Position numbers and translations under genes: made by a program
Notes under the pieces: generated by a model
Told to the model about the DNA's origin: nothing
Seen by the model: only the letters and a program-made list of their open reading frames with translations
Database searches by the model: none
Virus record (IMG/VR): IMGVR_UViG_3300039008_000002
Span: 1-42,222 of that record
DNA length: 42,222 bases
Direction: 5' to 3' (one strand)
DNA from: a virus
Shown: piece after piece, positions 3,523 to 42,076 of the stretch
How the letters are laid out: every line of letters starts with the position of its first letter
Numbering within the stretch: the first letter of the stretch is position 1

Positions 3523-3538
3523 ATGGTGGCACCTAATT
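3523..3538 (-). promoter_or_regulatory. Variant phage promoter (2 mismatches) upstream of the late/structural block
   Basis: Minus strand GAATTAGGTGCCACCATTCCAAAGGAACCCCGCCATG. The consensus GGGACC is replaced by GGTGCC. It leads directly into an RBS and ATG. Confidence 0.55.
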
Positions 3539-5437: not shown

Positions 5438-5462
5438 TCTTGTTCTTTTTGCGAGGGGTTGG

Positions 5463-5490
5463 AAAGAAAAGCCCCCGCCGAAGCGAGGGC
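5463..5490 (-). terminator. Intrinsic terminator between mazG and the RNR gene
   Basis: Minus strand GCCCTCGC-TTCG-GCGGGGGC-TTTTCTTTCC. Confidence 0.7.
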
Positions 5491-5496
5491 CGTGGG

Positions 5497-5979: not shown

Positions 5980-6266
5980 GCGGGACGTTTCCTTTTTCCA
6001 TTGAGGATTTCTGAGACGCGACCGGGATTGAGGCCGACAGCCGCAGCGATCTCGTGTTGGGATTTGGAGGTGACAGAGGAAAGGCGGACGACCTTGTCCC
6101 ACTGTTCAGGGGTGACGCCCCGGTTCTTCGACGGGGCAACACGTGACGCACTCTTACGGGTCATGAGCGAGAGAGCTTCCGCGATCTTCTCGGCCTCAGG
6201 CCCTTCGAGGTAGGAGCTGTCAAGCACCTCCTCCAGCAGCCCTCGTGCCTTGGGGATGTCGCTCAT
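5973..6266 (-). CDS. Small helix-turn-helix protein
   Basis: ATGA overlap with the upstream gene. SQHEIAAAVGLNPGRVSEILNGKR is an HTH-like segment. Confidence 0.5.
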   Translation of the reverse strand: MSDIPKARGLLEEVLDSSYLEGPEAEKIAEALSLMTRKSASRVAPSKNRGVTPEQWDKVVRLSSVTSKSQHEIAAAVGLNPGRVSEILNGKRKRPAC

Positions 6267-6523
6267 AGGATTTCTTCCCCTTCGAGTTGGTTGATGCGCA
6301 TCTCGCAGTAGCGGATGACTTTGCGCAGATCGGTGATCTCGCTCTCGCGTTCGTCCTGACCTGGGTAGAGCTTGGAGCCAGCGCGGCAGACGTACTTGAT
6401 GACGTTGCCTTTCCAGAAGGAGAGGCCGTTGCGCATGATGAAGGTGATGGGTTCGATCACGAACTGGGTGTAGTGCGAGGGCCGTACGACGACGTCCTCG
6501 GCAGGTTCTGTCACGGTGTCCAC
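6263..6523 (-). CDS. DUF3310-like phage protein
   Basis: SHYTQFVIEPITFI...GNVIKYVCRAG...DLRKVIRY matches the pattern I recall for DUF3310. There is no in-frame ATG, so the start is inferred as GTG (6523 or 6514). Confidence 0.55.
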   Translation of the reverse strand: MDTVTEPAEDVVVRPSHYTQFVIEPITFIMRNGLSFWKGNVIKYVCRAGSKLYPGQDERESEITDLRKVIRYCEMRINQLEGEEIL

Positions 6524-7368
6524 AGGATGGGTTCCTTGGTTTTGAAGTTGTAGTCTGAGGCGCGGAGGATGCGGGCCACCTGTGCTTGGCGGATGGCTTC
6601 CTCGACACCCAGACCAGCTGCCTCGAAGTGACTGACCACGACTTCCCATAGGTCGTCGCATTCCTCTTCGCGGTAGCGGATCACGGTGTTCCCTTTGTTG
6701 GGACCACTCTTGAGCGTGTGTTCGTACGGGACCTTCTTGAGACCGCCGTCGATGATCTTGTCGGCAATGGTGGTCCCTATTCCGGGGCACCCGCCGTAAC
6801 CGTCTGTGACATCGCCTGACAAAGTCTGCTTGAGCCAGTAGCAATTGGCCTCAAATGCGGAGACTTCGGTGATGTCCCATGCGCCTACGATCTCGACGCC
6901 GTCCTCGCTGAACTGCGCCTTGGTGCGGACGTACTTGCCGGGGATCGTCTTCATGTCCTTGTCGATGGACACGATGATCTGCTCGGCCTTGGAGGGACGT
7001 GTGGCGAGGATGCCCATGAGGTCGTCGCCTTCGAGGCCCGGTGCCATCTTGGCGTCCATGTTCTCGATCATCCATTGCTTCACAGCGAGGAGGACCAGAG
7101 GCTTGCGGACGGTTTTGCGGTGGGTCTTATAGGTGGGCAGGACGTCGAGGCGGAAGTTGTGTTCAGGGTCGGTGAGGCAGAGGACGTGCTTGTCGCCCTC
7201 CAGCTTCTCCATGATGTCCATCACGGTGCTTTCGACACGGGCTGTCACCTCGTCGAAGTTCACGTTCCATGTCCAGTGCCCCGGCTCCCATTCGAGAGCT
7301 GTCTCGCAAGAGGCGGCGCACTGGTAGGCCACCACATCCCCGTCAATGAGGAGTGTGCGTTTTGCCAT
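6511..7368 (-). CDS. 5'-3' exonuclease (T7 gp6-like)
   Basis: Start MAKRTLLIDGD (TGATG overlap with thyX). LEGDDLMGILA, SIDKDMKTIPG, SGDVTDGYGG and the C-terminal ARILRASDYNFKTKEPILWTP parallel T7 gp6. Confidence 0.9.
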   Translation of the reverse strand: MAKRTLLIDGDVVAYQCAASCETALEWEPGHWTWNVNFDEVTARVESTVMDIMEKLEGDKHVLCLTDPEHNFRLDVLPTYKTHRKTVRKPLVLLAVKQWMIENMDAKMAPGLEGDDLMGILATRPSKAEQIIVSIDKDMKTIPGKYVRTKAQFSEDGVEIVGAWDITEVSAFEANCYWLKQTLSGDVTDGYGGCPGIGTTIADKIIDGGLKKVPYEHTLKSGPNKGNTVIRYREEECDDLWEVVVSHFEAAGLGVEEAIRQAQVARILRASDYNFKTKEPILWTP

Positions 7369-8057: not shown

Positions 8058-8471
8058 CTATCTCTTTCGGAAACCCGCGTAGGGGCAGTTGATGTCTTTG
8101 GGGTGGAGGGTGATGGTGTCCTTGCCATCCAGCAGAGATGCCGGGATCAGCCAGAGACGGTGCTTGTGGACGACAGCCAGCAGGTCGTACCTGTCAGCTG
8201 GGTCGAGTGCATTGGTGGCCCCTAATTGTCTGACACGGACAGCTTTGTCCGCAGCAGCTGAGGTTTTCACCTGTACTCGCTGGAAGCCATGGCCGGTCTG
8301 GATAACCAGATCGACCCAACCGGGAACGGCTGGCCAGTAGATCGGCATACCTTCTGCGAGGAAGTACGAGGCGACAAGGTGTTCCCCTGCCGCCCCGAGG
8401 TAGTGGCTCGGGAGTGAGCCGTTGTGGTCAATGGGTCTCTGCCCAGTTGGCCCCGTACTTGTACTCGCCAT
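8058..8471 (-). CDS. PD-(D/E)XK nuclease-fold protein (free-standing, homing-endonuclease-like)
   Basis: GAAGEHLVASYFLAEGMPIYWPAVPGWVDLVIQTGHGFQRVQVKTS has the D...QVK signature of small PD-(D/E)XK nucleases. The start is uncertain: the ATG at 8471 overlaps the DNA polymerase 3' end by 44 nt. Confidence 0.45.
   Translation of the reverse strand: MASTSTGPTGQRPIDHNGSLPSHYLGAAGEHLVASYFLAEGMPIYWPAVPGWVDLVIQTGHGFQRVQVKTSAAADKAVRVRQLGATNALDPADRYDLLAVVHKHRLWLIPASLLDGKDTITLHPKDINCPYAGFRKR
8212..8227 (-). promoter_or_regulatory. Variant phage promoter-like sequence (2 mismatches) inside the PD-(D/E)XK ORF
   Basis: Minus strand ACAATTAGGGGCCACCAATGCAC. Lies ~160 nt upstream of thyX. Confidence 0.35.
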
Positions 8472-10431
8472 CGAGAGGACACTGGAACCCGAGGGCATCT
8501 CCAGCTTCTCGCATGGCTTCGACTGCGGTTTCTCCGACAACGTCTTCCAGTCCTTTCTTCACGAGGGTTTGAACCTCGTCGTGGACGTGAGCTACGAGGA
8601 GGAAGTCCTCGCCGGGGACGAGACCCTTCTCGGTCAGCTTGTCGTAGAAGAGGATGGTGGCTACCTTCACAGCGATGGCTCCTGCCGATTGTAGTAGAGT
8701 GTTGAGGGCCGAGTGATCGGAGCGGACCATGAGCAGGCCACCGTCGATCCCCATGACGTGCATGTCGCGCTTCTGGACAGCCTTCTTGAGGTCTTCCTTG
8801 AGCCGCGCCAGTGCAGGCACACGGCTGAGGAAAGCCTTGATCAGCTTGTTCCCTGCCCTGAGCTTGGCTGTGGACGTGCCCTGCGGAAGCATGATCTCAC
8901 CAATGGTCTCTGCCCCTGCCCCGTAGAGGAAGGCGTAGATGAACCGCTTGGCGATCTTGTTCCGCCACTTGGCGTGTTCCTCGTCATGCTCATCGTACTC
9001 GACCCCTTCGAAGAGACCGTCAGCCAGAGCCTGTGCGTTCACCCAATGGATGTCGCCGTCGAGGACAACAGCGGTGTACTTGCCGCCGTCATACCGTGCC
9101 ATGTAGTGAGCGAAGCAACGCAGCTCCAAGCCCGAGGCATCCCAACCGAGAAGGCTGTAGCCCTCAGGGGCGCACAGCAGCTCACGGAAGTCCTTGCCGA
9201 AGGGCACGGTAACCGCTGGGATTTGAGCCATGTTCGGCGAAGCGTGTGTGCAACGTCGTGTGACTGCGCCATTGGTGTTGACGCTGCCGTGGATGTTGCC
9301 GCCGCCCTTGCGAGCTGCCGGGATCAGACCCCTACCGCCCTTGCCTTCCAGCATGCCCAGACGTTTGTCGAGCAGGAAGTACTCAGCCAGTAGCTTGGCC
9401 TCAGGGTACTTGAGCTTCTTGAGGACCTTCTCGTCCACCATCGGCTTGCCCTGCTCGGTGAAGTCCTTCGGTTTCCAGCCGTACTTCTGCTTGAGCCAGC
9501 GGGCGATGTGATCGCGGGAGCCGGGGTTGAAGATGATCTCTTTCGACTTCTTGATCGTCTTGCCCTTGACATACCCGAGCTTCGAGTTGTTGGCCTTCGG
9601 GGTGAAGTCCCACTCCTCAGTGATCGGAGGGAATGCCTCTTGCAGGTCGGTGTAGATTTCAGCCTGCCGACGCATGAGCCGCTGCTGTAGCTTGAGCGCC
9701 CGTTCCATGTGGAAGGGGAAGCCATTGCGTTCCATCTCTGCGATGATCCACGCGAAGTTGCGTTCGATCTCGATGGCACGAGATGAGTAGCCCTTGCTTT
9801 CCTGCAGCTTGATCAGCTTGCGGGTGACGATCACGTCCTGCTCACAGTACTCCTGCATCGGGACGTTCCACGTAGCCCATGGATCGAGGCCCTGCTCCTT
9901 CATGTCTTTGGAGTAGTCGCCCTTCCATTCGCCGAGGCGGTAGCCCCATGCTTCGAGGCCGTGGGAGCCGATGAGACGACCGGGGAGGATCGTGTCCATC
10001 AGGGACTTGAAGGCTTTCACTTCATCCAGGTCAGGGTCTTCACGCAGCATCGCCTGCACCTGCCGCTTGAACTTGGGCGTGTGCTTCTTACGGAGCTTGA
10101 AGTCGTTCTCCCTGATGTCAGGCCAGATGAGGCGCGACAGGATCAGGGTGTCGGTGACCTTGTGCCGTGGCATGTCGAACCACGGGTAGATTTTCTTGAT
10201 TGCGGGGAGGTCGAACTTGATGGTGTTGTGCCCGATGTTCTCATCAGCTTCCAGCAGGAGCCGCAGCCCCTCCTTGATCGACACCACCTTGAAACCCAGT
10301 GGGGAGACATAGCCGGGATGATCCGTACAGGACCACCCCTCGCCAGTGTCGATGTCCATGAGGACCATGGAGTGGATGACAGTGAGTTGATCGAGCAGCC
10401 CATCGGTTTCGATGTCGAAGGCTAGACGCAT
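8428..10431 (-). CDS. Family A DNA polymerase (T7 gp5-like)
   Basis: Start MRLAFDIETDG with an AAGGAGA RBS. Exo motif FDIETDG, motif A GWDASGLELRCFAHY, motif B RNKIAKRFIYAFLYGAG, motif C VAHVHDEVQ. Confidence 0.95.
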   Translation of the reverse strand: MRLAFDIETDGLLDQLTVIHSMVLMDIDTGEGWSCTDHPGYVSPLGFKVVSIKEGLRLLLEADENIGHNTIKFDLPAIKKIYPWFDMPRHKVTDTLILSRLIWPDIRENDFKLRKKHTPKFKRQVQAMLREDPDLDEVKAFKSLMDTILPGRLIGSHGLEAWGYRLGEWKGDYSKDMKEQGLDPWATWNVPMQEYCEQDVIVTRKLIKLQESKGYSSRAIEIERNFAWIIAEMERNGFPFHMERALKLQQRLMRRQAEIYTDLQEAFPPITEEWDFTPKANNSKLGYVKGKTIKKSKEIIFNPGSRDHIARWLKQKYGWKPKDFTEQGKPMVDEKVLKKLKYPEAKLLAEYFLLDKRLGMLEGKGGRGLIPAARKGGGNIHGSVNTNGAVTRRCTHASPNMAQIPAVTVPFGKDFRELLCAPEGYSLLGWDASGLELRCFAHYMARYDGGKYTAVVLDGDIHWVNAQALADGLFEGVEYDEHDEEHAKWRNKIAKRFIYAFLYGAGAETIGEIMLPQGTSTAKLRAGNKLIKAFLSRVPALARLKEDLKKAVQKRDMHVMGIDGGLLMVRSDHSALNTLLQSAGAIAVKVATILFYDKLTEKGLVPGEDFLLVAHVHDEVQTLVKKGLEDVVGETAVEAMREAGDALGFQCPLDGEYKYGANWAETH

Positions 10432-13267: not shown

Positions 13268-13301
13268 GATGGTCCTTTCCAGTTGTTGGGTGCGTTGAAA
13301 C
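13268..13301 (-). promoter_or_regulatory. Conserved 5' leader / translation-initiation cassette (copy 2)
   Basis: Minus strand GTTTCAACGCACCCAACAACTGGAAAGGACCATC-ATG. Confidence 0.6.
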
Positions 13302-13336
13302 GAAAAACCCCCCGCCAGCCGAAGCCAGCGAGGGGG
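13298..13336 (-). terminator. Hairpin + U-run placed about 20 nt downstream of the 13358 promoter
   Basis: Minus strand CCCCCTCGCTGGC-TTCG-GCTGGCGGGGGG-TTTTTCGTTT. Confidence 0.65.
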
Positions 13337-13357
13337 AGGGAAATTGGAGGGATTGCT

Positions 13358-13373
13358 ATGGTGGTCCCTAATT
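13358..13373 (-). promoter_or_regulatory. Phage-RNAP promoter core overlapping the amidase stop codon
   Basis: Minus strand GATCAATTAGGGACCACCATAGCAATC. AAT TAG is the last codon plus stop of the amidase. Confidence 0.8.
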
Positions 13374-15694: not shown

Positions 15695-15954
15695 CAGAAG
15701 GTGATCTCGACGGTGTCGCCTTCGTAGACAGGCGTGTAGGATGTGGTGTTCCCGCTTACGGACGTGATGTCCAAGCTGCCGTTCCTCTTGACGCGGTGCT
15801 TCTTGCCGTACTGCCCGCCGAGGATGACGTGCTGCCCTTCTGCGGCAGGTCCTAGCCCGCTAGGGTCGAGCTGCAGGTAGAGGACACTGCCGTCGTTGCT
15901 GATCAAGGCAACAGGGCGGCGCGGGTCGCAGCCTCGTTTGACTTTGAATTTCAT
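15694..15954 (-). CDS. Hypothetical protein (86 aa)
   Basis: Internal start MKFKVKRG, preceded by the conserved leader ...CAACAACTGGAAGGACCATCA. The longer track ORF begins inside the promoter at 15999-16014. Confidence 0.55.
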   Translation of the reverse strand: MKFKVKRGCDPRRPVALISNDGSVLYLQLDPSGLGPAAEGQHVILGGQYGKKHRVKRNGSLDITSVSGNTTSYTPVYEGDTVEITF

Positions 15955-15990
15955 TGATGGTCCTTCCAGTTGTTGGATGCGTTGAAACGC
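15955..15990 (-). promoter_or_regulatory. Conserved 5' leader / translation-initiation cassette (copy 1)
   Basis: Minus strand GCGTTTCAACGCATCCAACAACTGGAAGGACCATCA-ATG. Confidence 0.6.
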
Positions 15991-15998
15991 TTGATGCA

Positions 15999-16014
15999 AT
16001 GGTGGTCCCTAATT
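15999..16014 (-). promoter_or_regulatory. Phage-RNAP promoter core just downstream of the RNAP gene
   Basis: Minus strand TGCAATTAGGGACCACCATTGCATC, followed by the conserved leader. This is the same position as T7 phi1.1. Confidence 0.8.
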
Positions 16015-16032
16015 GCAGGGACCTATGCCGCC

Positions 16033-16044
16033 TTGCATTGATCA
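16033..16044 (-). promoter_or_regulatory. Conserved motif TGATCAATGCAA (copy b); its TGA is the RNAP stop
   Basis: Minus strand TGATCAATGCAAGGCGGCATAG. Confidence 0.5.
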
Positions 16045-18690
16045 GGCGAAAAAGAAGTCCGACGAACGCACCTCTTCGAGATCGAGGTCGCCCTTCGCCG
16101 GGACACTGGGTACTTTCTTCTCGTCGGCCTCATCCACCTGCCGCAGGATTTGCTGACGGAAGTCGTCCAGCACGTCCAGCTCGGAGTAGAGGTTGACGAA
16201 TGCTTCACGCAGGCAAGCAGCCAACAGGTTACTGTCGGCGGCATGAGTGCCGAAGCTGTCGTGGATCATGGCAAAGCTGTCGATGCCATTCTCCGTGGCG
16301 TAGCACACGCTCATCATGAGGTGCGTTGCGTCCATCGAGTGGACGAAGTTGGGGCTGATGGCATTGGCCATACGCCGACGGTCAATGGTGTCCTGCTCGG
16401 ACGACAGCGACAGCCTGATGGTGGTCTCACCGAGCTTCGTCTTCACACGGCGGGACTTGTGGTTCTTGTACTGCTGCATGACACGGAAGCCGGTCGGTGT
16501 TGTCCAGTACACAGGCAGCTGCTCTGCTGCTACGACCTTCGCACACTTCTGGAGCCAGTCCATGGCAGCACGAGCTGCGATCACGACCTCACCAATGGCG
16601 TCCCAGATCAGGGCCGACATGTACTGCGTGGCCTTGAAGGTCTTGTCCTTCGTCCACGGCATGGTGAAGCCAGACGACAGCTGGTCACGGAGCCATTCCT
16701 CGGTGTACTCCCGGCAGCTGTACTGCGTGGAGCCGTAAGGCAGGGTCATGACCTGACGCTTGGTTGTCTTACGCGACGGCTGCAGCGACAGCCAGCCCAA
16801 GGCATAGACCTCCTCATCTGAAAGTCCCTTAGCTTCAGCTAGTTCAGCTATAGCTACAGCTGAAGAGTGGTTTTTCAGCGAGGAGTTATTCGTCTCTTCG
16901 GAAATAGCTTTAGCTATGGTGGTCCCTAATTCCCCAGCAGCCAGCTTGAGCTTGTCCATCACCTTGTCACAGACCCGTTGATAGATGTCCTCAGGGGTCT
17001 CAGCAGGCAGCAGGTTCACTGCCCGTCCACCCACGCTATCAAGCAGCATGGCCGAGAAGTGCTGGATGCCCGAGCAGCTGCCGTCGAGAGCAACAGCGAT
17101 GCGGGACATGTAGCCATAGCCCTGCTCCACGAACTCTGCCCACTCGAAGCAGAACGCGAGGAACTGCCACGGCTTGTCGGCATCGTGCCAGAAGCGACAG
17201 CCGAACGGATCGTTGGCGCACATGATGATCTCCTGCTCGTGGTCTTCAACCCAGCCGATGCGGTCCTCAAGCGAGGCCTTGTCGTAGCCGAACACGTTGG
17301 AGCCGTGGATGGCCAACCAGCCTGCGCCCACGCCGTCCTCGATAGGCTTGGCATCGGCGAACTCAAGCAGGCCCTTGGTCACGTCGTTGCCCTGCGGGTT
17401 GAACGAGGGGATGGCATACACCCGACCACGGAAGTCCAGCTGGTACGGGAAGTAGATCGCCTCAGCTTCGGCCAGCATGTCAGCCACCTTGATGGTCTTG
17501 GCGAGAGACAGACGCTTCGACCGGAGCGACACGTTGCCAGCATGTGCAGCGTACGCACGTTGCTTCCACTCACGCAGCACGTCCTCATCCTCGAAGCAAT
17601 CGTGGTCAGTGGAGCCACGGGTGTTCAGCTTAGGCAGGTCGATGGGTGCCGAGCAGCAGGGGCATGCCACATAGGCGGTGTCGTCCCGTGCCGGGAGCTT
17701 GGCCACGTCCTGACCACGTTCCCACAGCTCGACGAGGGTCTCCCGCACACGCGGGTTGATGCGCCAGCGGGTGGACTGCAGCGCGTTGATGGACTGGTAG
17801 ACCATGGGCATGTCCTCTGCGTGGTCGGCCAGCTCGGTGAGGTAGTTCCGGTTGCCGGTCTTGACCATGTTGTTTCGGGACTGCGCATCCTGGGTAAGGT
17901 AGCCACCGTTGTACGGGTCCGTCCAATCGAGAGGCTTCACGATCATCGGCATGTAGGCAGGCGACAGCAGCTCAGTGCGGGCAACCTCCTTCTCGATCCA
18001 CTCGACCAGCTTGGTGGTGGGCTGCAGTACCTTGACGGTATCGCGGCGGGTGTTCACCTCGTCAGCCACCTCGATCAGCCCGGTCTGGGTGATCATGTTG
18101 ACCAATGCCGAACCCACCTGCAGGCAGTCGTCCTCAGGCCATGCGTTCCACTCGGTCTCGTTGAAGCGGCGGTCATAGCCAGCCATGGTAGCCTTGCGGC
18201 GGTGGTAGGCGGTGGCCTTCCCTGCCCGGTCCAATGCCCGGTCATACATCTTGCCCTCGTTCTCCTTGAACTGAGCGAAGCGGACCTCGTCTTCGATGCG
18301 CTTGCCGATGTTGACACACACACGCTGCATCAGCTGCTTCTTGCCGGTCAGGCTGTCCACGACCACACGCATAGCGATGAACCCGGCCACGTCAGGCTCG
18401 ACCTGTTCGAGGTACTTGATGGCGACGTGACGGCGACCAGCCTTGGCTTTGCCTTGAGTGATGAAGCCGGTGATTGCCTCGGCCAGCTTGTCGATGGACA
18501 TGGCGACCAGCGTCTTACCGTAGCCGGTGCCGCTCTCGTTCCCGCGCTGACGTGCAGCCTCGATCTGCTTCCTGATCTGGTCACGGCCAATGCTGACCAT
18601 GCGTTCTTCCAGTGCGATCTCAGCGGCCAGCATTTCATCTCCATATGTTGCGGACAGCTCGTTGATCGGGCGGCGAAGGGTGGTTTCCAT
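16042..18690 (-). CDS. Single-subunit DNA-directed RNA polymerase (T7 gp1-like)
   Basis: 882 aa. Contains ALDGSCSGIQHFSAMLLDSVGGRAVNLLP, MIHDSFGTHAADS, ISPNFVHSMDATH and a C-terminal SSDFFFA (T7 has DFAFA). Confidence 0.97.
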   Translation of the reverse strand: METTLRRPINELSATYGDEMLAAEIALEERMVSIGRDQIRKQIEAARQRGNESGTGYGKTLVAMSIDKLAEAITGFITQGKAKAGRRHVAIKYLEQVEPDVAGFIAMRVVVDSLTGKKQLMQRVCVNIGKRIEDEVRFAQFKENEGKMYDRALDRAGKATAYHRRKATMAGYDRRFNETEWNAWPEDDCLQVGSALVNMITQTGLIEVADEVNTRRDTVKVLQPTTKLVEWIEKEVARTELLSPAYMPMIVKPLDWTDPYNGGYLTQDAQSRNNMVKTGNRNYLTELADHAEDMPMVYQSINALQSTRWRINPRVRETLVELWERGQDVAKLPARDDTAYVACPCCSAPIDLPKLNTRGSTDHDCFEDEDVLREWKQRAYAAHAGNVSLRSKRLSLAKTIKVADMLAEAEAIYFPYQLDFRGRVYAIPSFNPQGNDVTKGLLEFADAKPIEDGVGAGWLAIHGSNVFGYDKASLEDRIGWVEDHEQEIIMCANDPFGCRFWHDADKPWQFLAFCFEWAEFVEQGYGYMSRIAVALDGSCSGIQHFSAMLLDSVGGRAVNLLPAETPEDIYQRVCDKVMDKLKLAAGELGTTIAKAISEETNNSSLKNHSSAVAIAELAEAKGLSDEEVYALGWLSLQPSRKTTKRQVMTLPYGSTQYSCREYTEEWLRDQLSSGFTMPWTKDKTFKATQYMSALIWDAIGEVVIAARAAMDWLQKCAKVVAAEQLPVYWTTPTGFRVMQQYKNHKSRRVKTKLGETTIRLSLSSEQDTIDRRRMANAISPNFVHSMDATHLMMSVCYATENGIDSFAMIHDSFGTHAADSNLLAACLREAFVNLYSELDVLDDFRQQILRQVDEADEKKVPSVPAKGDLDLEEVRSSDFFFA
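16843..16864. promoter_or_regulatory. 22-bp near-palindrome (20/22) inside the RNAP ORF, ~55 nt downstream of the internal promoter
   Basis: Plus strand ttcagctatagctacagctgaa against its reverse complement ttcagctgtagctatagctgaa. Confidence 0.4.
16916..16931 (-). promoter_or_regulatory. Phage-RNAP promoter core inside the RNAP ORF
   Basis: Minus strand GGGGAATTAGGGACCACCATAGCTAAAGC, read in frame as GELGTTIAKA. The 16-nt core matches perfectly. Confidence 0.6.
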
Positions 18691-18705
18691 GGGTGCAATT
18701 CCTCG

Positions 18706-18718
18706 TGTTGCGGCAACA
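18706..18718. promoter_or_regulatory. Perfect 13-bp palindrome TGTTGC-G-GCAACA, 2 nt upstream of the RNAP Shine-Dalgarno
   Basis: Plus strand tgttgcggcaaca. Adjacent inverted repeat GCAACAG-TTGTTG-CTGTTGC at 18713-18732. Operator-like. Confidence 0.5.
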
Positions 18719-18766
18719 GTTGTTGCTGTTGCACATCATCTAATGCCACCCTGCATAGGTGGCGCG

Positions 18767-18797
18767 AAAAGAAAAACCCAACGCCTAAGCGTCAGGT
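18767..18797 (-). terminator. Intrinsic terminator between tRNA-Leu and the RNAP gene
   Basis: Minus strand ACCTGACGC-TTAG-GCGTTGGGT-TTTTCTTTTCG. 9-bp stem, tetraloop and U-run. Its last nt lies 76 nt upstream of the RNAP ATG. Confidence 0.7.
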
Positions 18798-19071
18798 TTT
18801 ACTGATGTTTCAGGGAGTGATGCCAGTGTGCATTGGCGGCGGACGAGAACCTAAATCTAATTCAGCCGCTTCTTCAAACCTGTAAGCTATTGATTTCTCA
18901 ACAACTTCTTCTCACTCCTACGTTGCAAACACTGCCTGTTTCGGCAACATCTGCAACAGCTTCTGCAACAAAATCCCAAGAGGGAAACTGCTGCGTTCCG
19001 CAGGTAGACACACGTCCATTGGCGCATCTACCAAATCTACCAGACACCCATCGTGTTGCCGATGTTGCGGC

Positions 19072-19156
19072 TGGTGCGGGCGGAGGGACTTGAACCCCCA
19101 CGCCTTGCGGCGGCTGGACCTAAACCAACTGCGTCTACCAATTTCGCCACGCCCGC
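19072..19156 (-). tRNA. tRNA-Leu, anticodon UAG, class II (long variable arm), CCA encoded
   Basis: Minus strand GCGGGCG-TG-GCGA-AATTGGTAGA-CGC-A-GTTGG-TTTAGGT-CCAGC-CGCCGCAAGGCGT-GGGGG-TTCAAGT-CCCTC-CGCCCGC-ACCA. Perfect 7-bp acceptor stem, 5-bp anticodon stem (one G-U), variable-arm hairpin CGCC/GGCG. Confidence 0.9.
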
Positions 19157-19218
19157 ATCGAGGCGAGGTGATAGCGCGGTCGCATGGTGTTGGCAAGTGT
19201 GCATCGGACGCCGGAGTA

Positions 19219-19234
19219 ATGGTGGTCCCTAATT
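19219..19234 (-). promoter_or_regulatory. Phage-RNAP promoter core upstream of tRNA-Leu
   Basis: Minus strand GAGAATTAGGGACCACCATTACTCC. Lies ~60 nt upstream of the tRNA 5' end and overlaps the stop codon of the 68-aa gene. Confidence 0.75.
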
Positions 19235-19435
19235 CTCCAGAGCGTAATCAACAGCCCTCTTCCGTGCTGCCCAGCCTGCGTTGAAGGCGTCACGGGCTTG
19301 CTGTTCCCAGCAATCGCCCCGCAGAGGGCCGTTGGTCTGTGCTGTTCGCCACGTGGCGAACGCGGCGTCCCGTTTCTCGTACTGCCCGGTCGGCACCACA
19401 CCGTGCGGGATTTCGTCAGTGTATTGGTAAGCCAT
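19229..19435 (-). CDS. Hypothetical protein (68 aa) downstream of int
   Basis: AAGGA RBS. Its last codon and stop (AAT TAG) are supplied by the promoter at 19219-19234. Confidence 0.5.
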   Translation of the reverse strand: MAYQYTDEIPHGVVPTGQYEKRDAAFATWRTAQTNGPLRGDCWEQQARDAFNAGWAARKRAVDYALEN

Positions 19436-19438
19436 CTC

Positions 19439-20476
19439 TTATCCTTCCAATGCTTTGACTGCGTTCATCAGGTCCTGCGGATACAGGTGCGAGTAACGCA
19501 TGGTGGTTGCGATGTTCGAGTGCCCGAGCCAAGCCTGCACGACAGGCAGGGAGACACCCTTCTGCACCAGCCGCGAGGCTGTGGTGTGACGGCAGACGTG
19601 GAGCGTGAAGTCCTTGTCCTCGGTCAGGTTCATGTGGGCACGTGCCTTGTCCCAAGCGTGGCGCATCTCTGCCTCACCCAGGTTGAAGCACCTGCTTCCC
19701 ATGGTGCGACGTTCCATGATGGACGCCACGCGCTTGGTCATAGGCACCGACCTGATCTTGCCGTTCTTCGTACCCTTGCCTTCCTTCCCGTAGACCATGA
19801 TCACACCAGTGGTGAGGTCCACGTCTGTCGGGCGCAGGTTGAGCAGCTCACCCCGACGCATGCCGGTGTCGATCAAGACCATCACGGCCTCGCCCATGTC
19901 GTCAGCCCCGACGTTGAAGAACCACGTGAGCAGCACGTCTTCTTCCTGCCTGCTGATCTGGCGGATGCGACCGACCGGCTCCTTGCGCTGTCGTGGCAGC
20001 TTGAGCGGGACCTCAAGACCACCGTAGTCGTACGCCACCTTGGCCATCTTCGAGAGAGCCGACCGCTTCCTGTTGATGGTGCTGTCGCTGTTCCCTCGGG
20101 TCTCGCAGTCATGCAACCATGCATCAATCCGGTCACGAGAAAGCTCTGCCAACTTGGTGTTGGGTCCGAAGAATGTGATCGCGTCCTGTGCGTTGAGCGT
20201 GGCCTGCTTCTCGTAGCTGATGCCTCGCCACCCCTCAGGCTTGGGCAGGGACAGCAGCTTGTCGAGCGCCTGCTGTAGCGTCCAGCCTACGGCATTGGCC
20301 CGCACCTGTCGGACCTCCTTGCCTGTCTCAAGCGCCTGCTGCAGCTCATCCTTGCGGGTCATGGCCTCGACCAGCGAGGCACAGGTGGCTGTCTTGCGCT
20401 TGCCGTTCACCGTCACATCGACGAAGAACTTCTCGCCGCGCATGCGGATGCCTCGTGGTAGGTTCAATGCGTTCAT
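19439..20476 (-). CDS. int: Tyrosine recombinase / phage integrase
   Basis: 345 aa. Catalytic-type signature: RRGELLNLRPTDVDL (Arg), HVCRHTTASRL (HxxR), WLGHSNIATTMRYSHL (His...Tyr). Confidence 0.9.
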   Translation of the reverse strand: MNALNLPRGIRMRGEKFFVDVTVNGKRKTATCASLVEAMTRKDELQQALETGKEVRQVRANAVGWTLQQALDKLLSLPKPEGWRGISYEKQATLNAQDAITFFGPNTKLAELSRDRIDAWLHDCETRGNSDSTINRKRSALSKMAKVAYDYGGLEVPLKLPRQRKEPVGRIRQISRQEEDVLLTWFFNVGADDMGEAVMVLIDTGMRRGELLNLRPTDVDLTTGVIMVYGKEGKGTKNGKIRSVPMTKRVASIMERRTMGSRCFNLGEAEMRHAWDKARAHMNLTEDKDFTLHVCRHTTASRLVQKGVSLPVVQAWLGHSNIATTMRYSHLYPQDLMNAVKALEG

Positions 20477-20488
20477 GTCTTATCCCTT

Positions 20489-20824
20489 TCACTCCATCAG
20501 TTGTTCGATCTCAGCCAGCACGGTTGCTCCTTTCTTGGTCAGCTGGCAGCGGACCCGGCGTGGGTCCTCGTGGTCAGGCACCATCTCGATCCAGTCGAGC
20601 GGATGCTTATGTCCCCGCAATGGCTTCTCGCCCAAGTGAGCGAGGATGCGGGCGACGGTGGATTGGTTGAGACCTGTTGATGTCACGATGTCTCGAACCA
20701 GTACGCCTTCCCGTGCCCCCTTACGTGCCACGATGAGCAGCACTTGGAGCCGGGTCAGGGTCATCTCCCTGTCGTACTTGAGAAGGTGTGTACTAACCCT
20801 CAGTAAATTCGCAGTTCCTTTCAT
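20489..20824 (-). CDS. MarR-family winged-helix transcriptional regulator (candidate repressor)
   Basis: Start MKGTANLL with an AAGGAGAGG RBS. LTRLQVLLIVARKG...VLVRDIVTSTGLNQSTVARILAHLGEKPL...DPRRVRCQLTKKG is a typical MarR wHTH plus wing. Confidence 0.7.
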   Translation of the reverse strand: MKGTANLLRVSTHLLKYDREMTLTRLQVLLIVARKGAREGVLVRDIVTSTGLNQSTVARILAHLGEKPLRGHKHPLDWIEMVPDHEDPRRVRCQLTKKGATVLAEIEQLME

Positions 20825-20855
20825 TGATCCTCTCCTTTTTCCTTCCTGCTGCACT

Positions 20856-24512: not shown

Positions 24513-24952
24513 TCGGGTAATAGCTCGCGCGTGAGGCTGGGGCTATGGCTGTTGCGTGATTTGCAAGCACAAATGCAGAAGAAAGACAGAAGTGCAGACA
24601 AAGCGCAGCGACGTTGCAACAGCCTCGCGGTGGCCGTCACTTGGGCTGAAACTCGCGCTAATCCGTGCATGAATGGATATGGTATCTAACGCGGAACCCT
24701 GCAGAATAAGGCTTTCCCGCGCCACGATTGCAGGATTGTTGCAGGGCTGTTGCGCGGCGCATGCTTTTCCACAGGTGGGCGGCGGCTCCTTACCCCCAGG
24801 GGGGGATCGCAGCGCCAGCCTATATCGGTAAGCTGATCACATTTTTCACCCCAAAACATCTCGGGTGGTAGCCTGCGATAACCCGCACAGGCGACGGGAG
24901 ACACTGATCACCTCCTTTCAAGGGCTTTCCACGAGGAGGGGATGAAGCAGGT

Positions 24953-25115
24953 GGTCAAGCTGTTGCTACCACATAAGTGGTCAAGCTGTAGCTATTCCCT
25001 ATTGCTATGTGCCTCACGGAGGGTAGGCTGTTAAGCCTTCCCCGGAGTGAGGCGGGAGGCTTCCACGAGGAGGGGTCTGTCCCCCTAGCCATTCGCAACT
25101 GGTCAAGCTGTTGCT
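24953..25115. repeat. Three copies of GGTCAAGCTGT(T/A)GCT interleaved with two copies of TTCCACGAGGAGGGG
   Basis: 15-mers at 24953-24967, 24979-24993 and 25101-25115. Second family at 24927-24941 and 25061-25075. A 42-nt imperfect hairpin (25011-25052) lies between them. Confidence 0.75.
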
Positions 25116-25151
25116 TCTCTCTATAGGTATAGCAACGGCCCAGCATTTGCA

Positions 25152-28041: not shown

Positions 28042-28470
28042 TTACACCTCGATTGTTTGGGCGATGGAGAACAGCTCGTCCATGTCAGCCGTGGACAGAG
28101 AACTGCCATCAGGCCATGTGACGTATTCAGCCAGCGCGTTGAGAAGTGGGCTTGATCGCTTGTAGGTGGAAGCCTCAGCCCAAGCGAGTTGGGTCAATGG
28201 GTCCATCGCAGCGATCAGAGCTTCGACTTGTGCAAGCAACCCCATCTGCAACAGGGCTGCTTTTGCTTGGAGGCGTGTGCAGGTCACTTCCACAACGACA
28301 GGTCCGTCGTCCACGTCAGGGACGTATGCTCCCACCGCGCCGTACTTCCCGGCCACTGCCTCATTGAAGAGAACAGGGTCGGTCCTCGGCTCGATGATCA
28401 TCACGTCGTCATCGCTGACAGTCAGCCTGATCACAGTGCCTTCATCATTCAAGTAAACTGGGTTATACAT
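28042..28470 (-). CDS. Fibre-associated protein (tail-fibre chaperone-like)
   Basis: TAATG overlap with the fibre gene. C-terminal TRLQAKAALLQMGLLAQVEALIAAMDPLTQLAWAEASTYKRSSPLLNAL resembles a helical module common next to phage fibre genes. Confidence 0.4.
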   Translation of the reverse strand: MYNPVYLNDEGTVIRLTVSDDDVMIIEPRTDPVLFNEAVAGKYGAVGAYVPDVDDGPVVVEVTCTRLQAKAALLQMGLLAQVEALIAAMDPLTQLAWAEASTYKRSSPLLNALAEYVTWPDGSSLSTADMDELFSIAQTIEV

Positions 28471-29750
28471 TACCAGCCCTCCGAGTTTGCGCCGCCGCCG
28501 AGAGGGTAGTAGTCGCTACCGTCCGTCAGGAGGCGGAAGTTCTTTATGTAGCCCGTCGTGTTGACGTAGCCCTTACCGCCGTCGAATTGGTTGCCCTTCA
28601 CGCGGGCGTAGATGCGGTCCCCCGGATAGACCGAGACCGAGGAGATCGACTTGTAATCGCCGGTCGTGGAGGTCGTGGTGAACGATTGAAGCAGGGTGTC
28701 GCTCCCGTTCCGCACACGCCGCACCTCCACCGTCGCATTGTACGAGCCATTGCTGGTTCGCAGTGCGCAGGAGATCCGCACGGTTCCTTCTTGGAGGAAG
28801 TAGAAGGAGTACCCAACCCCCCATGACCCGCTCCCACTGCGGCTAACTTCGGTGTCGTAGCGAGCGCGGACTGTCCAACCTGCAGTCAGGGTTCCAACAA
28901 CACCGTCAGCACCTGCAGCACCTGCAGGACCCTGTGCGCCAGTCGCACCTTGAGGGCCAGTCGCACCAGTAGCGCCAGCGGTCCCTTGAGGACCCTGAGG
29001 ACCAGTCGTGCCTTCCCATGTGCCGATGTTGGTGTAGGTGCCAGCACCTGTGACCTGATAGACGTTGCCGTTGGTGTGGTAGTAGATGTCCCCCACGGTC
29101 GAAGCTGTGGAGTACGCACCGACGTTGGAGCCAGTTGCGAACTTGTCACCGTCAGCACCAGCAGGGCCAGCAGGTCCAGTTGCACCTTGGGCACCAGTTG
29201 CACCTTGAGGGCCGGTCGGGCCTTGAGGGCCTGTATCACCAGTCGTACCTTGTGGGCCTTGGATACCTTGGATGCCCTGAGGCCCTTGTGTGCCCTGTGG
29301 TCCTACGAGGTCGGTAAACGCAGGCCATGCCCCGTCGGGTTCTTGGAAGCGGACAGCAGAGGTCGGAGCGTTTGTGCCATTCCCCCACTCATGGTCAGGC
29401 GCTGCACCTGTGTTGCCGACAGGGCCTTCTGGTCCGGTCACACCTTGCGGGCCTTGCAGGCCTTGGTCGCCTTGGACACCCTGAGGGCCAGTCGCACCAG
29501 TTGCACCCGTAGGGCCAGTCGCACCTTGAGGACCTGTTGCACCATCGACGCCGTCTACTCCGTCAGCACCGGCTTGTGCCATGAGCTGCCAGTAGGTGGC
29601 GTTCGAGGGAGCGATCCCTGCGGTCGTTGTGAGGATACAGACATAGCTGCTCCCTTGGTACGTCACAGCGTCGAGCGGGTTGTAGACCGTCACCGCGCTG
29701 TAAGCACCTTTCCAGCCGATACGAACTCGGCCAATGTTGAGTGTTCCCAT
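28470..29750 (-). CDS. Distal tail-fibre protein with three collagen-like G-X-Y tracts
   Basis: 426 aa. The N-terminal [34 protein letters not shown] is a carbohydrate-binding-like repeat. Three G-X-Y runs are followed by a ~150-aa non-repetitive C-terminal domain. Confidence 0.75.
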
Positions 29751-29753
29751 AGT

Positions 29754-42060: not shown

Positions 42061-42076
42061 ATGGTGGTCCCTAATT
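42061..42076 (-). promoter_or_regulatory. Phage-RNAP promoter core (capsid promoter)
   Basis: Minus strand AATAATTAGGGACCACCATTGCAAT. It shares a 25-nt identity with the copy at 25152-25167. Lies ~340 nt upstream of the capsid ATG. Confidence 0.8.

What the first reader, a model, noticed from the sequence alone, without database searches (positions are those of the whole stretch)
16805..16935. Perfect promoter copy plus a 22-bp near-palindrome inside an AT-rich, codon-atypical patch of the RNAP gene
A 16/16 match to the phage promoter core lies in frame inside gene 1, encoding GELGTTIAKA. It sits in a ~130-nt segment that I count at ~45% GC, visibly lower than the surrounding GC-rich sequence. 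That segment uses codons rare elsewhere in the genome (GCT for every Ala, plus ATA, CTA, GTA, TCA) and contains seven or eight AGCT tetramers. About 55 nt downstream is a 20/22 palindrome (TTCAGCTGTAGCTATAGCTGAA, 16843-16864). The segment corresponds to a variable surface region of T7 RNAP, just before the conserved ...KRQVMTLPYGS block. The nucleotide sequence appears to be selected for something other than coding. Possibilities: an internal promoter feeding the downstream class II genes, a promoter producing a C-terminal RNAP fragment, an autoregulatory RNAP or repressor binding site, or a recent insertion of a promoter-bearing element.
Basis: partly seen in the sequence, partly recalled or inferred. 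Interest (0 to 1): 0.65.

Follow-up and report, generated by a model that had tools for sequence, protein, structure and literature searches.

The report
Phage promoter embedded in RNA-polymerase gene
A T7-like, probably temperate phage carries a full copy of its own promoter inside its RNA-polymerase gene, and relatives keep that copy matched to their own promoter variant at the cost of changing the encoded amino acids, so the DNA here is selected as a regulatory signal as well as for coding.

Summary
The RNAP gene is on the minus strand (16042-18690). It contains a 17/17 copy of the phage promoter (-17..-1 = 16931..16915, inferred +1 = G16914). The copy sits in a patch with 45.8% GC, the worst codon usage in the genome and the densest AGCT cluster, and it includes a 20/22 palindrome.

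Comparison with 13 related phages and prophages (RNAP 57-97% identical) settles most of the interpretation.
- Every relative has a promoter at the same codon.
- That promoter follows the phage's own specificity region (GGGACC, AACACC, GWGGAC, CCCGCC, AACTTC, RGTKCC), and the encoded dipeptide changes with it (GT, TP, VD, PA, TS, SS/GS).
- One relative has lost almost the whole loop but keeps a 17/17 promoter.
- Outgroups (49% identity or less) lack the promoter, and their loop is 30-50 residues shorter.

So this is an ancient, clade-wide, selected intragenic promoter in a disordered finger-domain loop. It is not a recent insertion. It most likely starts middle-gene (class II) transcription.

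The downstream AT-rich AGCT/CTATAG palindrome array is also conserved at the nucleotide level. It partly resembles the leader of the left-end promoter. Its role is unresolved: a T7-type origin, a leader structure or a protein-binding array are all possible.

There is precedent for promoters inside RNAP genes (Syn5, KP34), so this is a new variant of a known kind.

The parts
16042..18690 (-). Single-subunit (T7-type) RNA polymerase gene, 882 aa
   Evidence: ORF and translation. PDB T7 RNAP match at E = 6e-149 over residues 8-882. Pfam RPOL_N and RNA_pol hits recorded for the identical protein.
16908..16931 (-). Intragenic phage promoter. -17..-1 = 16931..16915 (AATTAGGGACCACCATA). Inferred +1 = G16914. 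In frame as E-L-G-T-T-I-A (codons 587-593).
   Evidence: Exact match found. It is one of 8 gene-strand hits to a generic clade pattern, against 1 on the other strand. It contains the gene's only TTA codon and one of its two ATA codons. It is conserved and co-varies in relatives. The +1 is placed by analogy with the T7/K11 promoter ...TATAG (inference).
16904..16917 (-). Palindrome straddling the start site: ATAGCT-AA-AGCTAT (-3..+11)
   Evidence: Perfect inverted repeat with 6-nt arms. Arms of 5 nt or more occur in 9 of 14 internal promoters of the clade, against 5.5% of random positions, with a mean arm of 4.9 nt against 3.1 nt at other promoters. The sequence differs between phages (CCATAGC-AGAA-GCTATGG, AGCATATGCT, AGCTATAGCT, TGTAGCTACA).
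16865..16903 (-). Hypervariable, low-complexity spacer of the loop (ISEETNNSSLKNH)
   Evidence: Length and sequence vary widely in the alignment of 40 relatives. pLDDT is below 50 for residues 587-609.
16827..16864 (-). Distal AGCT array: TTCAGCTGTAGCTATAGCTGAACTAGCTGAAGCTAAGG. It includes the 20/22 palindrome 16843-16864 and one of only two CTATAG hexamers in the genome (16848-16853).
   Evidence: It is the densest AGCT cluster of the locus in 10 of 13 relatives. Ala codons in the patch are mostly GCT in most relatives, e.g. 7/8, 8/8, 6/7, against roughly a fifth to a third in the rest of the gene for most of them. A 22-nt segment is 77% complementary to the start-proximal segment 16894-16915.
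16801..16935 (-). AT-rich, codon-atypical patch, codons about 586-630. The finger-domain loop is about 30-50 residues longer than in the nearest outgroups.
   Evidence: composition and codon usage; loop segment 69-101 aa in the clade, with two exceptions of 49 aa, against 41-51 aa in P0042-P0050; position in the protein, low confidence.
15999..16012 (-). Core of the next phage promoter, 30 nt after the RNAP stop codon (positional analogue of T7 phi1.1A/B)
   Evidence: A promoter in the same position is seen in most relatives.
19219..19232 (-). Core of a phage promoter upstream of tRNA-Leu and the RNAP gene
   Evidence: Relatives have a promoter 60-150 nt upstream of the RNAP start. A comparable promoter in LUZ100 is described in PMC10134795.
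25152..25165 (-). Core of the left-end promoter (after the terminase gene). Its leader carries the genome's other CTATAG (25121-25126).
13358..13371 (-). Core of the phage promoter that is identical to the intragenic copy over -17..+2
42061..42074 (-). Core of a phage promoter upstream of the capsid gene
6767..6780 (-). Core of a second ORF-embedded promoter, inside the 5'-3' exonuclease gene, read in the same frame (G-I-G-T-T-I-A-D)
   Evidence: Conserved in L014, L016, L017 and L021, with bases that co-vary.
8212..8225 (-). Core of a weaker ORF-embedded promoter, same frame (Q-L-G-A-T-N-A)
3523..3536 (-). Core of a weaker promoter copy (2 mismatches)

Best explanation
The site is a genuine promoter for the phage's own single-subunit RNA polymerase, written into the polymerase's reading frame.

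Location and constraint.
- It lies in a flexible, insertion-tolerant loop of the fingers domain.
- Only one of the two stop-free frames is used (..GAA TTA GGG ACC ACC ATA GCT..). This forces the peptide x-L-x-x-T-I-A and the otherwise avoided codons TTA and ATA.

Proposed mechanism.
- Once polymerase has been made from transcripts that start upstream, it binds this site and initiates at about G16914.
- It then transcribes the last ~870 nt of its own gene and runs on into the DNA-metabolism (class II) genes, together with the promoter 30 nt past the stop codon. This pair resembles the tandem phi1.1A/phi1.1B promoters of T7.

Downstream element. The AT-rich leader, with a palindrome across the start site and an AGCT/CTATAG array 50-90 nt downstream, is a second cis element selected at the nucleotide level.

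What is shown and what is inferred.
- Shown: the sequence identity, the conservation, the co-variation, the codon cost and the clade distribution.
- Inferred: that the site fires in vivo, the exact +1, and which genes depend on it.
For: Match to the genome's promoters.
- 17/17 match to the promoter family, 19/19 to the copy at 13358. Chance expectation is about 0.
- All family members lie on the gene strand.

Conservation and co-variation.
- In 13 related phages or prophages the RNAP gene has a promoter at the same codon.
- Unbiased k-mer searches recover the site as the RNAP-internal sequence with the most copies elsewhere in the locus, 75-176 nt upstream of KRQVMTL.
- For four clearly distinct promoter types the internal site has 0-1 mismatch to its own consensus in -13..-7, against 3-5 mismatches to the consensus of the other distinct types. 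The encoded dipeptide changes accordingly. The AACTTC type of L121 matches an own promoter 17/17.
- L021 has the loop almost deleted but keeps a 17/17 promoter, encoded as KLVDTIA.
- 40 of 42 clade proteins keep a TI/TL motif at the homologous point of the loop; in most it reads L/I-x-x-T-I.

Codon cost. TTA and ATA codons of the RNAP genes are concentrated in this patch across the clade.

Same solution elsewhere. The same frame is used for two other ORF-embedded promoters, in the exonuclease gene and in a small ORF.

Protein tolerance. The peptide lies in one of only two segments with pLDDT below 50. It aligns to a variable T7 loop.

Polymerase features. The AT-rich recognition loop (AGRRHIAVKYL) is conserved, in line with the conserved AATTA. 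The specificity-loop region varies between promoter types.

Precedent. A Syn5 promoter lies inside its RNAP gene, and KP34 has a weak one (PMC6834552; Syn5 position verified).
Against: - There are no transcript 5'-end data for any member of the clade.
- The promoter looks redundant with the one 30 nt after the stop codon.
- Its transcript would start with about 870 nt that cannot be translated into a useful product.
- In L015, L018/L065 and L020 the internal site differs from the phage's majority consensus in the specificity region (one position, GTTCC against GTGCC or GTCCC; L020 also differs at -12). It may therefore be weaker there, or the polymerase may tolerate both.
- P0039 has lost the site.
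- The relatives share ancestry, so the 13 cases are not 13 independent events.
Confidence: 0.72

Rival explanations
1. T7-type origin of replication embedded in the RNAP gene. The promoter plus its AT-rich, palindrome-rich leader primes leading-strand DNA synthesis from the transcript (R-loop), as phi1.1A/B plus their downstream region do in T7. The left-end promoter and its leader would be a secondary origin. This is compatible with the promoter also serving transcription.
For: - T7 origins are defined by a phage promoter, and the primary origin lies next to gene 1 (PMC8373140).
- Here the leader is the most AT-rich coding stretch of the genome.
- The non-template strand can form hairpins at and after the start.
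- By my tally, 21 of 29 CTATAG hexamers in 13 loci lie within about 140 nt downstream of just two promoters, the RNAP-internal one and the left-end one.
- L019's left-end leader also carries an AGCT cluster.
Against: - No replication data exist.
- That the T7 primary origin includes an AT-rich region is my recollection. The paper I searched for it does not use the term.
- L021 keeps the promoter but has lost the AT-rich array.
- L018, L065 and L025 have no AGCT cluster.
- The promoter just after the gene is an equally good positional analogue of phi1.1A/B.
- T7 origins have no known specific motif, so the shared CTATAG is not itself a known origin feature.
Confidence: 0.2
2. Protein-binding array. 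The palindrome across +1 and the repeated AGCT-NN-AGCT units bind a dimeric phage or host protein that switches the internal promoter off or blocks transcription through the gene, for example in lysogeny or late in infection.
For: - Palindromes centred on the start site are specific to the internal promoter.
- AGCTNNAGCT occurs 5 times in about 120 nt, with 0.6 expected in the whole genome.
- The phage encodes a MarR-like protein, an integrase and an HTH_39 protein.
Against: - The palindrome sequence differs between close relatives, whereas the MarR-like recognition helix is conserved.
- A different conserved operator-like motif (ATGC-N6-GCAT) already flanks the RNAP gene and is absent from the patch.
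- Symmetry kept while the sequence changes fits a nucleic-acid structure better than a fixed protein site.
Confidence: 0.13
3. Leader RNA structure. The start-proximal AGCU-rich segment pairs with the distal AGCU array to give a 5'-terminal stem that stabilises a transcript which carries no ribosomes for about 870 nt, or the hairpins form a processing site in the full-length mRNA.
For: - A 22-nt inverted repeat (77% complementary) joins +1..+21 to +48..+69.
- The 5' end is predicted to pair with the distal array in WIN, L017, L019, L022, L026 and L020.
- Proximal-distal complementarity exceeds random windows at about p <= 0.05 in 5 of 12 phages, with a sixth at 0.063.
Against: - 5'-end pairing probability is no higher than at random positions (0.53 against 0.47).
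- Fold z-scores are modest, from about +0.5 to -3.5.
- Complementarity is not significant in the other half of the phages.
- The start-site palindrome includes bases upstream of +1 that are absent from the internal transcript.
- There is no Rfam match.
Confidence: 0.15
4. Coincidence or protein-level conservation only. The peptide xLxxTIA is needed by the enzyme and merely looks like a promoter.
For: The motif is conserved at the amino-acid level in 40 of 42 clade proteins.
Against: - The variable residues follow the promoter's specificity bases rather than any chemical similarity (GT, SS, TP, VD, PA).
- The rarest codons are used.
- The peptide is in a disordered loop that outgroups lack.
- The same peptide frame recurs at promoters in unrelated genes.
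Confidence: 0.03
5. Recent insertion of a mobile, promoter-bearing element, or a promoter that makes a C-terminal RNAP fragment.
For: The loop is 30-50 residues longer than in outgroups. The composition is foreign-looking.
Against: - The feature is present at the same codon across a clade down to 57% identity, including two integrated prophages.
- No similar DNA is found in 50,697 phage records.
- No flanking repeats or tandem duplication are seen.
- On inspection of the sequences I saw no conserved ribosome-binding site plus in-frame start. A fragment starting at M648 would lack part of the O-helix (T7 K631 region; the role of K631 is from my own knowledge).
Confidence: 0.04

Closest known systems
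T7 class II promoters phi1.1A/phi1.1B and the primary origin next to gene 1
   Same: Phage-RNAP promoters at the 3' side of the RNAP gene that open middle-gene transcription. Two promoters lie in tandem in the same orientation. In T7 these promoters double as the primary replication origin (PMC8373140).
   Different: In T7 both promoters are intergenic. Here the first one lies about 870 nt inside the RNAP ORF and constrains the protein sequence. Origin activity is untested here.
Syn5 cyanophage promoter inside its RNAP gene, and the KP34 weak promoter inside its RNAP gene
   Same: A cognate single-subunit RNAP promoter located within the RNAP coding sequence (PMC6834552). In Syn5 it is also read as ..P-L-G-T-R.. 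(ATTGGGCACCCGTAA at 4929-4943 of gene 4120-6459).
   Different: The Syn5 site is at codon ~270, in the N-terminal half of the protein, not in the finger loop at codon ~590, so the positions are not homologous. Those papers report single genomes. I found no report of clade-wide co-variation with the encoded peptide, and no downstream palindrome array is described in the passages I read.
Other intragenic T7 promoters (for example phi4c within gene 4; from my own knowledge of the T7 map)
   Same: Compact T7-like genomes place promoters inside coding sequence.
   Different: Those sites are not in the polymerase's own gene. They have not, to my knowledge, been shown to drive amino-acid change as promoter specificity diverges.
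Temperate T7-like phages with an integrase and MarR-like module, and a phage promoter in front of the RNAP (LUZ100)
   Same: The window has a MarR-like gene, an integrase, tRNA-Leu and a phage promoter upstream of the RNAP. Clade members occur as prophages. The LUZ100 paper proposes positive feedback plus MarR control (PMC10134795).
   Different: The LUZ100 RNAP is only 41% identical. A search of that paper's text for 'intragenic', 'RNAP gene' and 'within the' found no mention of a promoter inside the RNAP gene. Outgroups at 49% identity or less lack one in my scans.

Membership tests
T7-group single-subunit-RNAP promoter | A conserved sequence of about 17-23 bp repeated at several places in the genome, all co-oriented with the genes | tested here: met
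   8-9 copies, all on the gene strand. Shuffles give 0.17. A generic pattern gives 8 hits on the gene strand and 1 on the other.
T7-group single-subunit-RNAP promoter | Three-part layout: A/T-rich -17..-13, a phage-specific block around -12..-7, and a conserved melting/start block (T7 CACTATAG; here CACCAT(T/A)G) | tested here: met
   Across 13 phages AATTA and CACCAT are conserved while -12..-8 varies. The polymerase AT-rich recognition loop is conserved and the specificity loop varies.
T7-group single-subunit-RNAP promoter | A cognate RNAP is encoded in the same genome | tested here: met
T7-group single-subunit-RNAP promoter | Transcripts start at +1 when the cognate RNAP is present | not testable with these tools
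   No transcript data. +1 = G16914 is inferred by analogy.
RNAP-gene-embedded promoter as in Syn5 | The promoter lies within the RNAP ORF | tested here: met
RNAP-gene-embedded promoter as in Syn5 | Homologous position, which would indicate common descent | tested here: not met
   Syn5 site at codon ~270. Here it is at codon 587-593.
T7-type replication origin | Depends on a phage-RNAP promoter | tested here: met
   A promoter is present. The requirement is stated in PMC8373140.
T7-type replication origin | AT-rich DNA directly downstream of the promoter (a feature of the T7 primary origin as I recall it; not confirmed in the paper I read) | tested here: met
   47% GC in +1..+120 against 59.5% for the genome. 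It is lower than the rest of the gene in every relative with a full-length loop, but the array is absent in L021.
T7-type replication origin | DNA synthesis initiates there | not testable with these tools
   Needs replication-intermediate mapping.
MarR-type operator | A palindrome shared with the other sites the repressor controls | tested here: not met
   The repeated operator-like motif is ATGC-N6-GCAT. The patch palindromes are AGCT-based and vary between phages, while the MarR-like recognition helix is conserved.
Recently inserted mobile element | Present or absent among close relatives; flanking repeats | tested here: not met
   Present in all clade members with DNA. No flanking direct repeats.

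The most novel reading that the evidence does not exclude
The RNAP gene carries a self-contained 'specificity cassette'. A cognate promoter lies about 480 nt upstream of the codons for the specificity loop, so the polymerase's recognition module and one promoter that it recognises are inherited and recombined together. The promoter's AT-rich, hairpin-forming leader doubles as the phage's primary, transcript-primed replication origin, embedded in an ORF. This linkage would explain three things: how promoter specificity can drift or be exchanged in this clade without loss of viability; why promoters inside RNAP genes have arisen more than once (Syn5, KP34, this clade); and why the loop is hypervariable, being a start-proximal and possibly R-loop-prone region.
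Probability: 0.15. Interest if true: 0.75.

Novelty: new variant of a known kind. Interest (0 to 1): 0.55.

Why it matters
- It shows a regulatory DNA signal and a protein sequence constraining each other inside the gene for the enzyme that reads that signal. When promoter specificity changes, the polymerase's own amino-acid sequence has to change at this site, and so does that of an exonuclease.
- It provides a set of about six naturally diverged promoter/polymerase pairs, each with a built-in cognate site. These are useful for studying how orthogonal T7-type transcription systems evolve, and for designing them.
- It marks a conserved AT-rich palindrome array that may be a replication origin or control element in a poorly studied group of temperate T7-like phages of Alphaproteobacteria.
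- It shows that a codon-atypical patch can flag an overlapping signal inside a gene.

Tried and rejected
- Close DNA relatives among 50,697 phage records: none for the gene (74.7% identity over 6% of it) and only chance hits for the patch.
- Tandem Repeats Finder on the patch: nothing. The hexamer periodicity AGCTNN is too degenerate.
- Rfam: only the tRNA-Leu.
- Sigma-70-type promoter scan of 15800-19400: none. A host promoter using CTATAG as its -10 element did not fit the spacing, judged by eye.
- 5'-stem hypothesis: pairing of the transcript's 5' end is no more likely than at random positions. Fold z-scores are modest. Proximal-distal complementarity is significant in only about half of the phages.
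- attP inside the RNAP gene, so that integration would split the gene: rejected. Two integrated prophages carry an intact RNAP gene as the first phage gene.
- MarR binding to the patch palindrome: disfavoured.
- Internal promoter in outgroups: about 45 loci with recognisable T7-type promoters have no significant match in the RNAP loop. The one exception is a partial copy (13/18, with 11 contiguous bases) in L103.
- Divergence against a relative with 94% nucleotide identity: synonymous differences are low in the patch but also in the next ~90 codons, so this is uninformative.
- The paper on temperate T7-like phages cited by the LUZ100 study ('Sheep in wolves' clothing') is not in the library, so I could not check whether it mentions this site.


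Full report
WHAT THE WINDOW IS

The window is a circularly assembled genome (bases 1-141 repeat at 42082-42222) of a T7-like podovirus with 59.5% GC. All genes are on the minus strand.

The gene order around the finding, read on the minus strand, is:
- a MarR-like winged-helix gene (20489-20854)
- a tyrosine integrase (19439-20476)
- a phage promoter (19219-19232)
- tRNA-Leu (19072-19156)
- a strong hairpin terminator (18800-18773)
- the RNA polymerase gene (18690-16042, 882 aa)
- another promoter (16012-15999)
- then SSB, endonuclease I, amidase, an HTH_39 protein, primase-helicase, DNA polymerase, ThyX and a 5'-3' exonuclease

This order comes, with matching gene tables of relatives.

The RNAP is 39-41% identical to those of Rhizobium, Bordetella, Ralstonia and Pseudomonas LUZ100 phages. 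It matches T7 RNAP structures at E = 6e-149.

CHECK OF THE OBSERVATION

Promoter copy.
- The 24-mer AATTAGGGACCACCATAGCTAAAG lies at 16908-16931 on the minus strand.
- The family TTAGGGACCACCAT(T/A)G has six perfect 14-nt cores, at 42061, 25152, 19219, 16916, 15999 and 13358. Three weaker copies lie at 8212, 6767 and 3523. All are on the gene strand, with 0.17 expected by chance.
- The intragenic copy is identical to the copy at 13358 over -17..+2.
- By analogy with T7/K11 promoters (..TATAG), +1 is G16914. This placement is an inference.

Composition and codon usage.
- The interval 16805-16935 is 45.8% GC, in the lowest 0.5% of 131-nt windows.
- It contains the lowest-scoring 44-codon windows of 9809 in the genome for codon usage.
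- It holds the only TTA among the gene's 71 Leu codons and both ATA among its 42 Ile codons.
- It has the genome's densest AGCT cluster (9 in 131 nt) and 5 of the genome's 9 AGCTNNAGCT (0.6 expected).

Palindrome. The palindrome at 16843-16864 is 20/22.

- The gene is on the minus strand.
- GCT is not a rare codon (28% of Ala), although 7 of 7 in the patch is unusual.
- The palindrome starts 50 nt after +1.

THE DECISIVE COMPARISON

Source of relatives. A protein search found about 40 RNAPs that are 57-83% identical, almost all from metagenomes. In their alignment the loop before ..RKTTKRQVMTLPYGS is hypervariable in length and sequence. The exception is a short motif, (E/Q)L-x-x-T-I-A, at its start.

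DNA obtained. I fetched flanking DNA for 13 distinct relatives.

Result. In every one the RNAP gene carries, at that motif, a 17-nt site that matches that phage's own promoters. The specificity block (-12..-7) differs between phages, and the internal site and the encoded dipeptide follow it:

| Phage | Specificity block | Dipeptide |
|---|---|---|
| Window, L122, L026 | GGGACC | GT |
| L017 | AACACC | TP |
| L021 | G(T/A)GGAC | VD |
| L022-L024, L027 | CCCGCC | PA |
| L121 | AACTTC | TS |
| The rest | (A/G)GT(T/G/C)CC | SS or GS |

For the window, L017, L021 and L024 types, the internal site has 0-1 mismatch to its own consensus in -13..-7. It has 3-5 mismatches to the consensus of the other distinct types. 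The L121 site matches one of that prophage's own promoters 17/17.

Independent confirmations.
- Searches that did not use the internal site as a seed agree. A k-mer family search found the promoter de novo in L017 and L019, with the RNAP site 1-2 mismatches away.
- Asking which 16-mer inside each RNAP gene has the most copies elsewhere in its locus returned this site, 75-176 nt upstream of KRQVMTL, in 13 of the 14 clade loci that have enough flank. It returned nothing comparable in about 80 more distant loci. The exception, L020, carries the site, but another repeat ranked first.

Most telling case. L021 has a loop cut down to outgroup length, yet it keeps a perfect 17/17 copy of its own, very different promoter, encoded as KLVDTIA.

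Conclusion. Selection is therefore on the DNA, not on the peptide.

WHERE IT SITS IN THE PROTEIN, AND HOW OLD IT IS

- The patch aligns to the variable stretch of the T7 RNAP fingers domain just before the O-helix motif.
- In an AlphaFold model (mean pLDDT 83), residues 587-609 are one of only two segments below pLDDT 50. The other is the tip of the specificity loop.
- The stretch from DIY.. to ..KRQVMT is 69-101 residues in the clade, with two members at 49. It is 41-51 residues in the nearest outgroups, P0042-P0050, which are 45-49% identical.
- Those outgroups, and about 45 further loci whose T7-type promoters I could derive, have no promoter in the RNAP loop.
- The single exception is L103, a Parvibaculum MAG prophage. 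It has 13 of 18 bases of its own promoter (the 11 start-proximal bases exactly) at the homologous position. This may be a decayed or incipient version.

The feature is therefore an old, clade-defining extension of a tolerant loop, not a recent insertion.

Members of the clade occur as integrated prophages in Pseudovibrio ascidiaceicola and in a Pseudomonadota MAG. In both, the intact RNAP gene is the first phage gene at the junction. This also rules out an attachment site inside the gene.

THE SAME SOLUTION ELSEWHERE IN THE GENOME

The promoter has stop codons in one frame (AAT TAG). Of the two open frames, the L-x-x-T-I-A frame is used at all three ORF-embedded promoters of the window:
- RNAP: ELGTTIA
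- 5'-3' exonuclease: GIGTTIAD (6767-6780)
- a small ORF before thyX: QLGATNA (8212-8225)

The exonuclease site is conserved in L014, L016, L017 and L021, with bases that co-vary (frames worked out by hand). Embedding promoters in coding sequence is therefore a general habit of this clade. The RNAP case is the one where the enzyme reads a signal written in its own gene.

THE AT-RICH AGCT/CTATAG ARRAY

This is a second element, and it is also selected at the nucleotide level.
- In 10 of 13 loci the densest AGCT cluster of the whole locus is in this patch.
- Ala codons in the patch are mostly GCT, for example 8/8 in L020 against 20/99 in the rest of the gene and 6/7 against 16/94 in L022. This holds although the surrounding peptide is hypervariable.
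- A palindrome straddles the start site in nearly all members. Arms of 5 nt or more occur in 9 of 14, against 5.5% of random positions. Other promoters have a mean arm of 3.1 nt against 4.9 nt here.
- The palindrome's sequence changes while its symmetry is kept: ATAGCT-AA-AGCTAT, CCATAGC-AGAA-GCTATGG, AGCTATAGCT, AGCATATGCT, TGTAGCTACA.
- L018, L065 and L025 use TCTATAGA instead.
- The hexamer CTATAG is rare. By my tally, 21 of the 29 copies in 13 loci lie within about 140 nt downstream of two promoters only: the RNAP-internal one and the left-end one after the terminase gene. In the window the only two copies are at 16848 and 25121.

What I could not establish is what the array does.
- RNA 5'-stem model. 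It has partial support: a 22-nt inverted repeat joins +1..+21 to +48..+69, and complementarity is significant in about half of the phages. However, 5'-end pairing is no better than at random positions. Part of the start-site palindrome also lies upstream of +1, so it is absent from the internal transcript.
- MarR binding. This is unlikely. A different operator-like motif, (T)GATC(A/T)ATGCA..G.GGCAT, flanks the RNAP gene at 18757 and 16039. In L020 that motif is a perfect palindrome, ATGCCA-NN-TGGCAT. The MarR-like recognition helix is conserved across phages with different patch palindromes.
- T7-type origin. This remains attractive and untested. The supporting points are a promoter followed by an AT-rich region, non-template-strand hairpins that could stabilise an R-loop, a shared motif with the left-end promoter leader, and a position next to gene 1. 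T7 origins are promoter-dependent, and the primary origin is phi1.1A/B (PMC8373140).

MOST LIKELY MECHANISM

Polymerase made from upstream-initiated transcripts binds the internal site. It initiates at about 16914, reads through the last 870 nt of its gene and continues into the middle genes, alongside the promoter 30 nt past the stop codon. This resembles T7's tandem phi1.1A/B promoters.

- Shown: the site is a full-consensus family member, it is conserved, it co-varies with promoter type, it is costly in codons, and it lies in a dispensable loop.
- Inferred: its activity, the +1 position, and which genes depend on it.
- Against: there are no transcript data. The site looks redundant with the next promoter. 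In L015, L018/L065 and L020 the internal site departs from the majority consensus in the specificity block.

COMPARISON WITH WHAT IS KNOWN

- Promoters inside the RNAP gene have been reported for cyanophage Syn5, and a weak one for Klebsiella phage KP34 (PMC6834552).
- I verified the Syn5 site (ATTGGGCACCCGTAA at 4929-4943, gene 4120-6459). It falls at codon ~270, so it is not homologous in position.
- LUZ100 and other temperate T7-likes have a phage promoter in front of the RNAP and a MarR/integrase module (PMC10134795). A text search of that paper found no mention of a promoter inside the RNAP gene, and my scans find none in outgroups.
- The core finding is thus a new variant of a known kind. 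The new elements are the clade-wide conservation, the co-variation that rewrites the enzyme's own peptide (and the exonuclease's), and the conserved palindromic AT-rich leader.

VERDICT

The internal promoter is supported. The recent insertion, the C-terminal fragment and the MarR site are not.
- Interest is moderate (0.55).
- The most novel reading not excluded is a linked promoter/specificity cassette that doubles as an ORF-embedded replication origin. I give it about 15%.

Noticed in passing
window 6767-6780 (-) and 8212-8225 (-); L014 22014, L016 17693, L017 21884, L021 16899: Two further phage promoters are embedded in ORFs (the 5'-3' exonuclease gene and a small ORF before thyX). Both are read in the same L-x-x-T-(I/N)-A frame as the RNAP site. 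The exonuclease site is conserved in relatives and its bases and peptide co-vary.
   Followed up: partly
window minus-strand motif starts at about 24149, 23311, 18757, 16039 and 10835; L020 1124-12681 (8 copies); L014 5886-17932 (10 copies): A repeated operator-like motif, (T)GATC(A/T)ATGCA(A/G)(G/C)G(C/T)GGCAT, which in L020 is a perfect palindrome ATGCCA-NN-TGGCAT. One copy lies about 60 nt before the RNAP start. Another overlaps the RNAP stop codon, 10 nt before the next promoter. It is possibly the MarR-like repressor's operator.
   Followed up: partly
window 19072-19156 (-); L120 and L121 around 9350-10000: A tRNA-Leu gene lies between the integrase and the RNAP gene, a likely attP region. 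In two integrated prophages the RNAP gene is the first phage gene after host genes, so integration separates the RNAP from the early region and the integrase/MarR module.
   Followed up: partly
window 18773-18800 (-): A strong intrinsic-terminator-like hairpin (12-bp stem plus a T run) lies between tRNA-Leu and the RNAP start. It recalls the read-through terminator proposed upstream of the LUZ100 RNAP.
   Followed up: no
window about 13300-13340 (-): A GC-rich hairpin followed by a T run (CCCCCTCGCTGGCTTCGGCTGGCGGGGGGTTTTT) lies 20-55 nt downstream of the promoter at 13358, before the HTH_39 gene. It may be an attenuator-like terminator directly after a promoter.
   Followed up: no
window 24940-25150 (-): The left-end region after the promoter at 25152 has three copies of GCAACAGCTTGACCA(C/G), which contain -35-like TTGACC elements. 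This is reminiscent of T7's phiOL followed by the host promoters A1-A3. The region also contains CCTATAG at 25121-25126.
   Followed up: partly
window 28470-30827 (-): Two adjacent ORFs (426 and 357 aa) are full of 9-nt-periodic Gly-X-Y collagen-like repeats. Pfam Collagen and Phage_T7_tail hits are recorded for the homologues in L014.
   Followed up: no
L103 11674-11695 (Parvibaculum MAG prophage, RNAP 42% identical): An outgroup carries 13 of the 18 bases of its own promoter (the 11 start-proximal bases, TGCACCAAGAC, exactly) at the homologous loop position (..EKLHQDIAEG..). This may be a decayed or incipient internal promoter.
   Followed up: partly
window 16843-16874 (+): Read on the antisense strand, the 22-nt palindrome is followed by GAGTGGTTTTT and scores as a weak intrinsic terminator. 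In relatives a purine/A-rich run likewise precedes the AGCT palindromes on the sense strand.
   Followed up: no
window 1-141 and 42082-42222: An exact 141-bp terminal overlap. The length equals a common assembler k-mer size, so this indicates a circular assembly rather than true terminal repeats.
   Followed up: no
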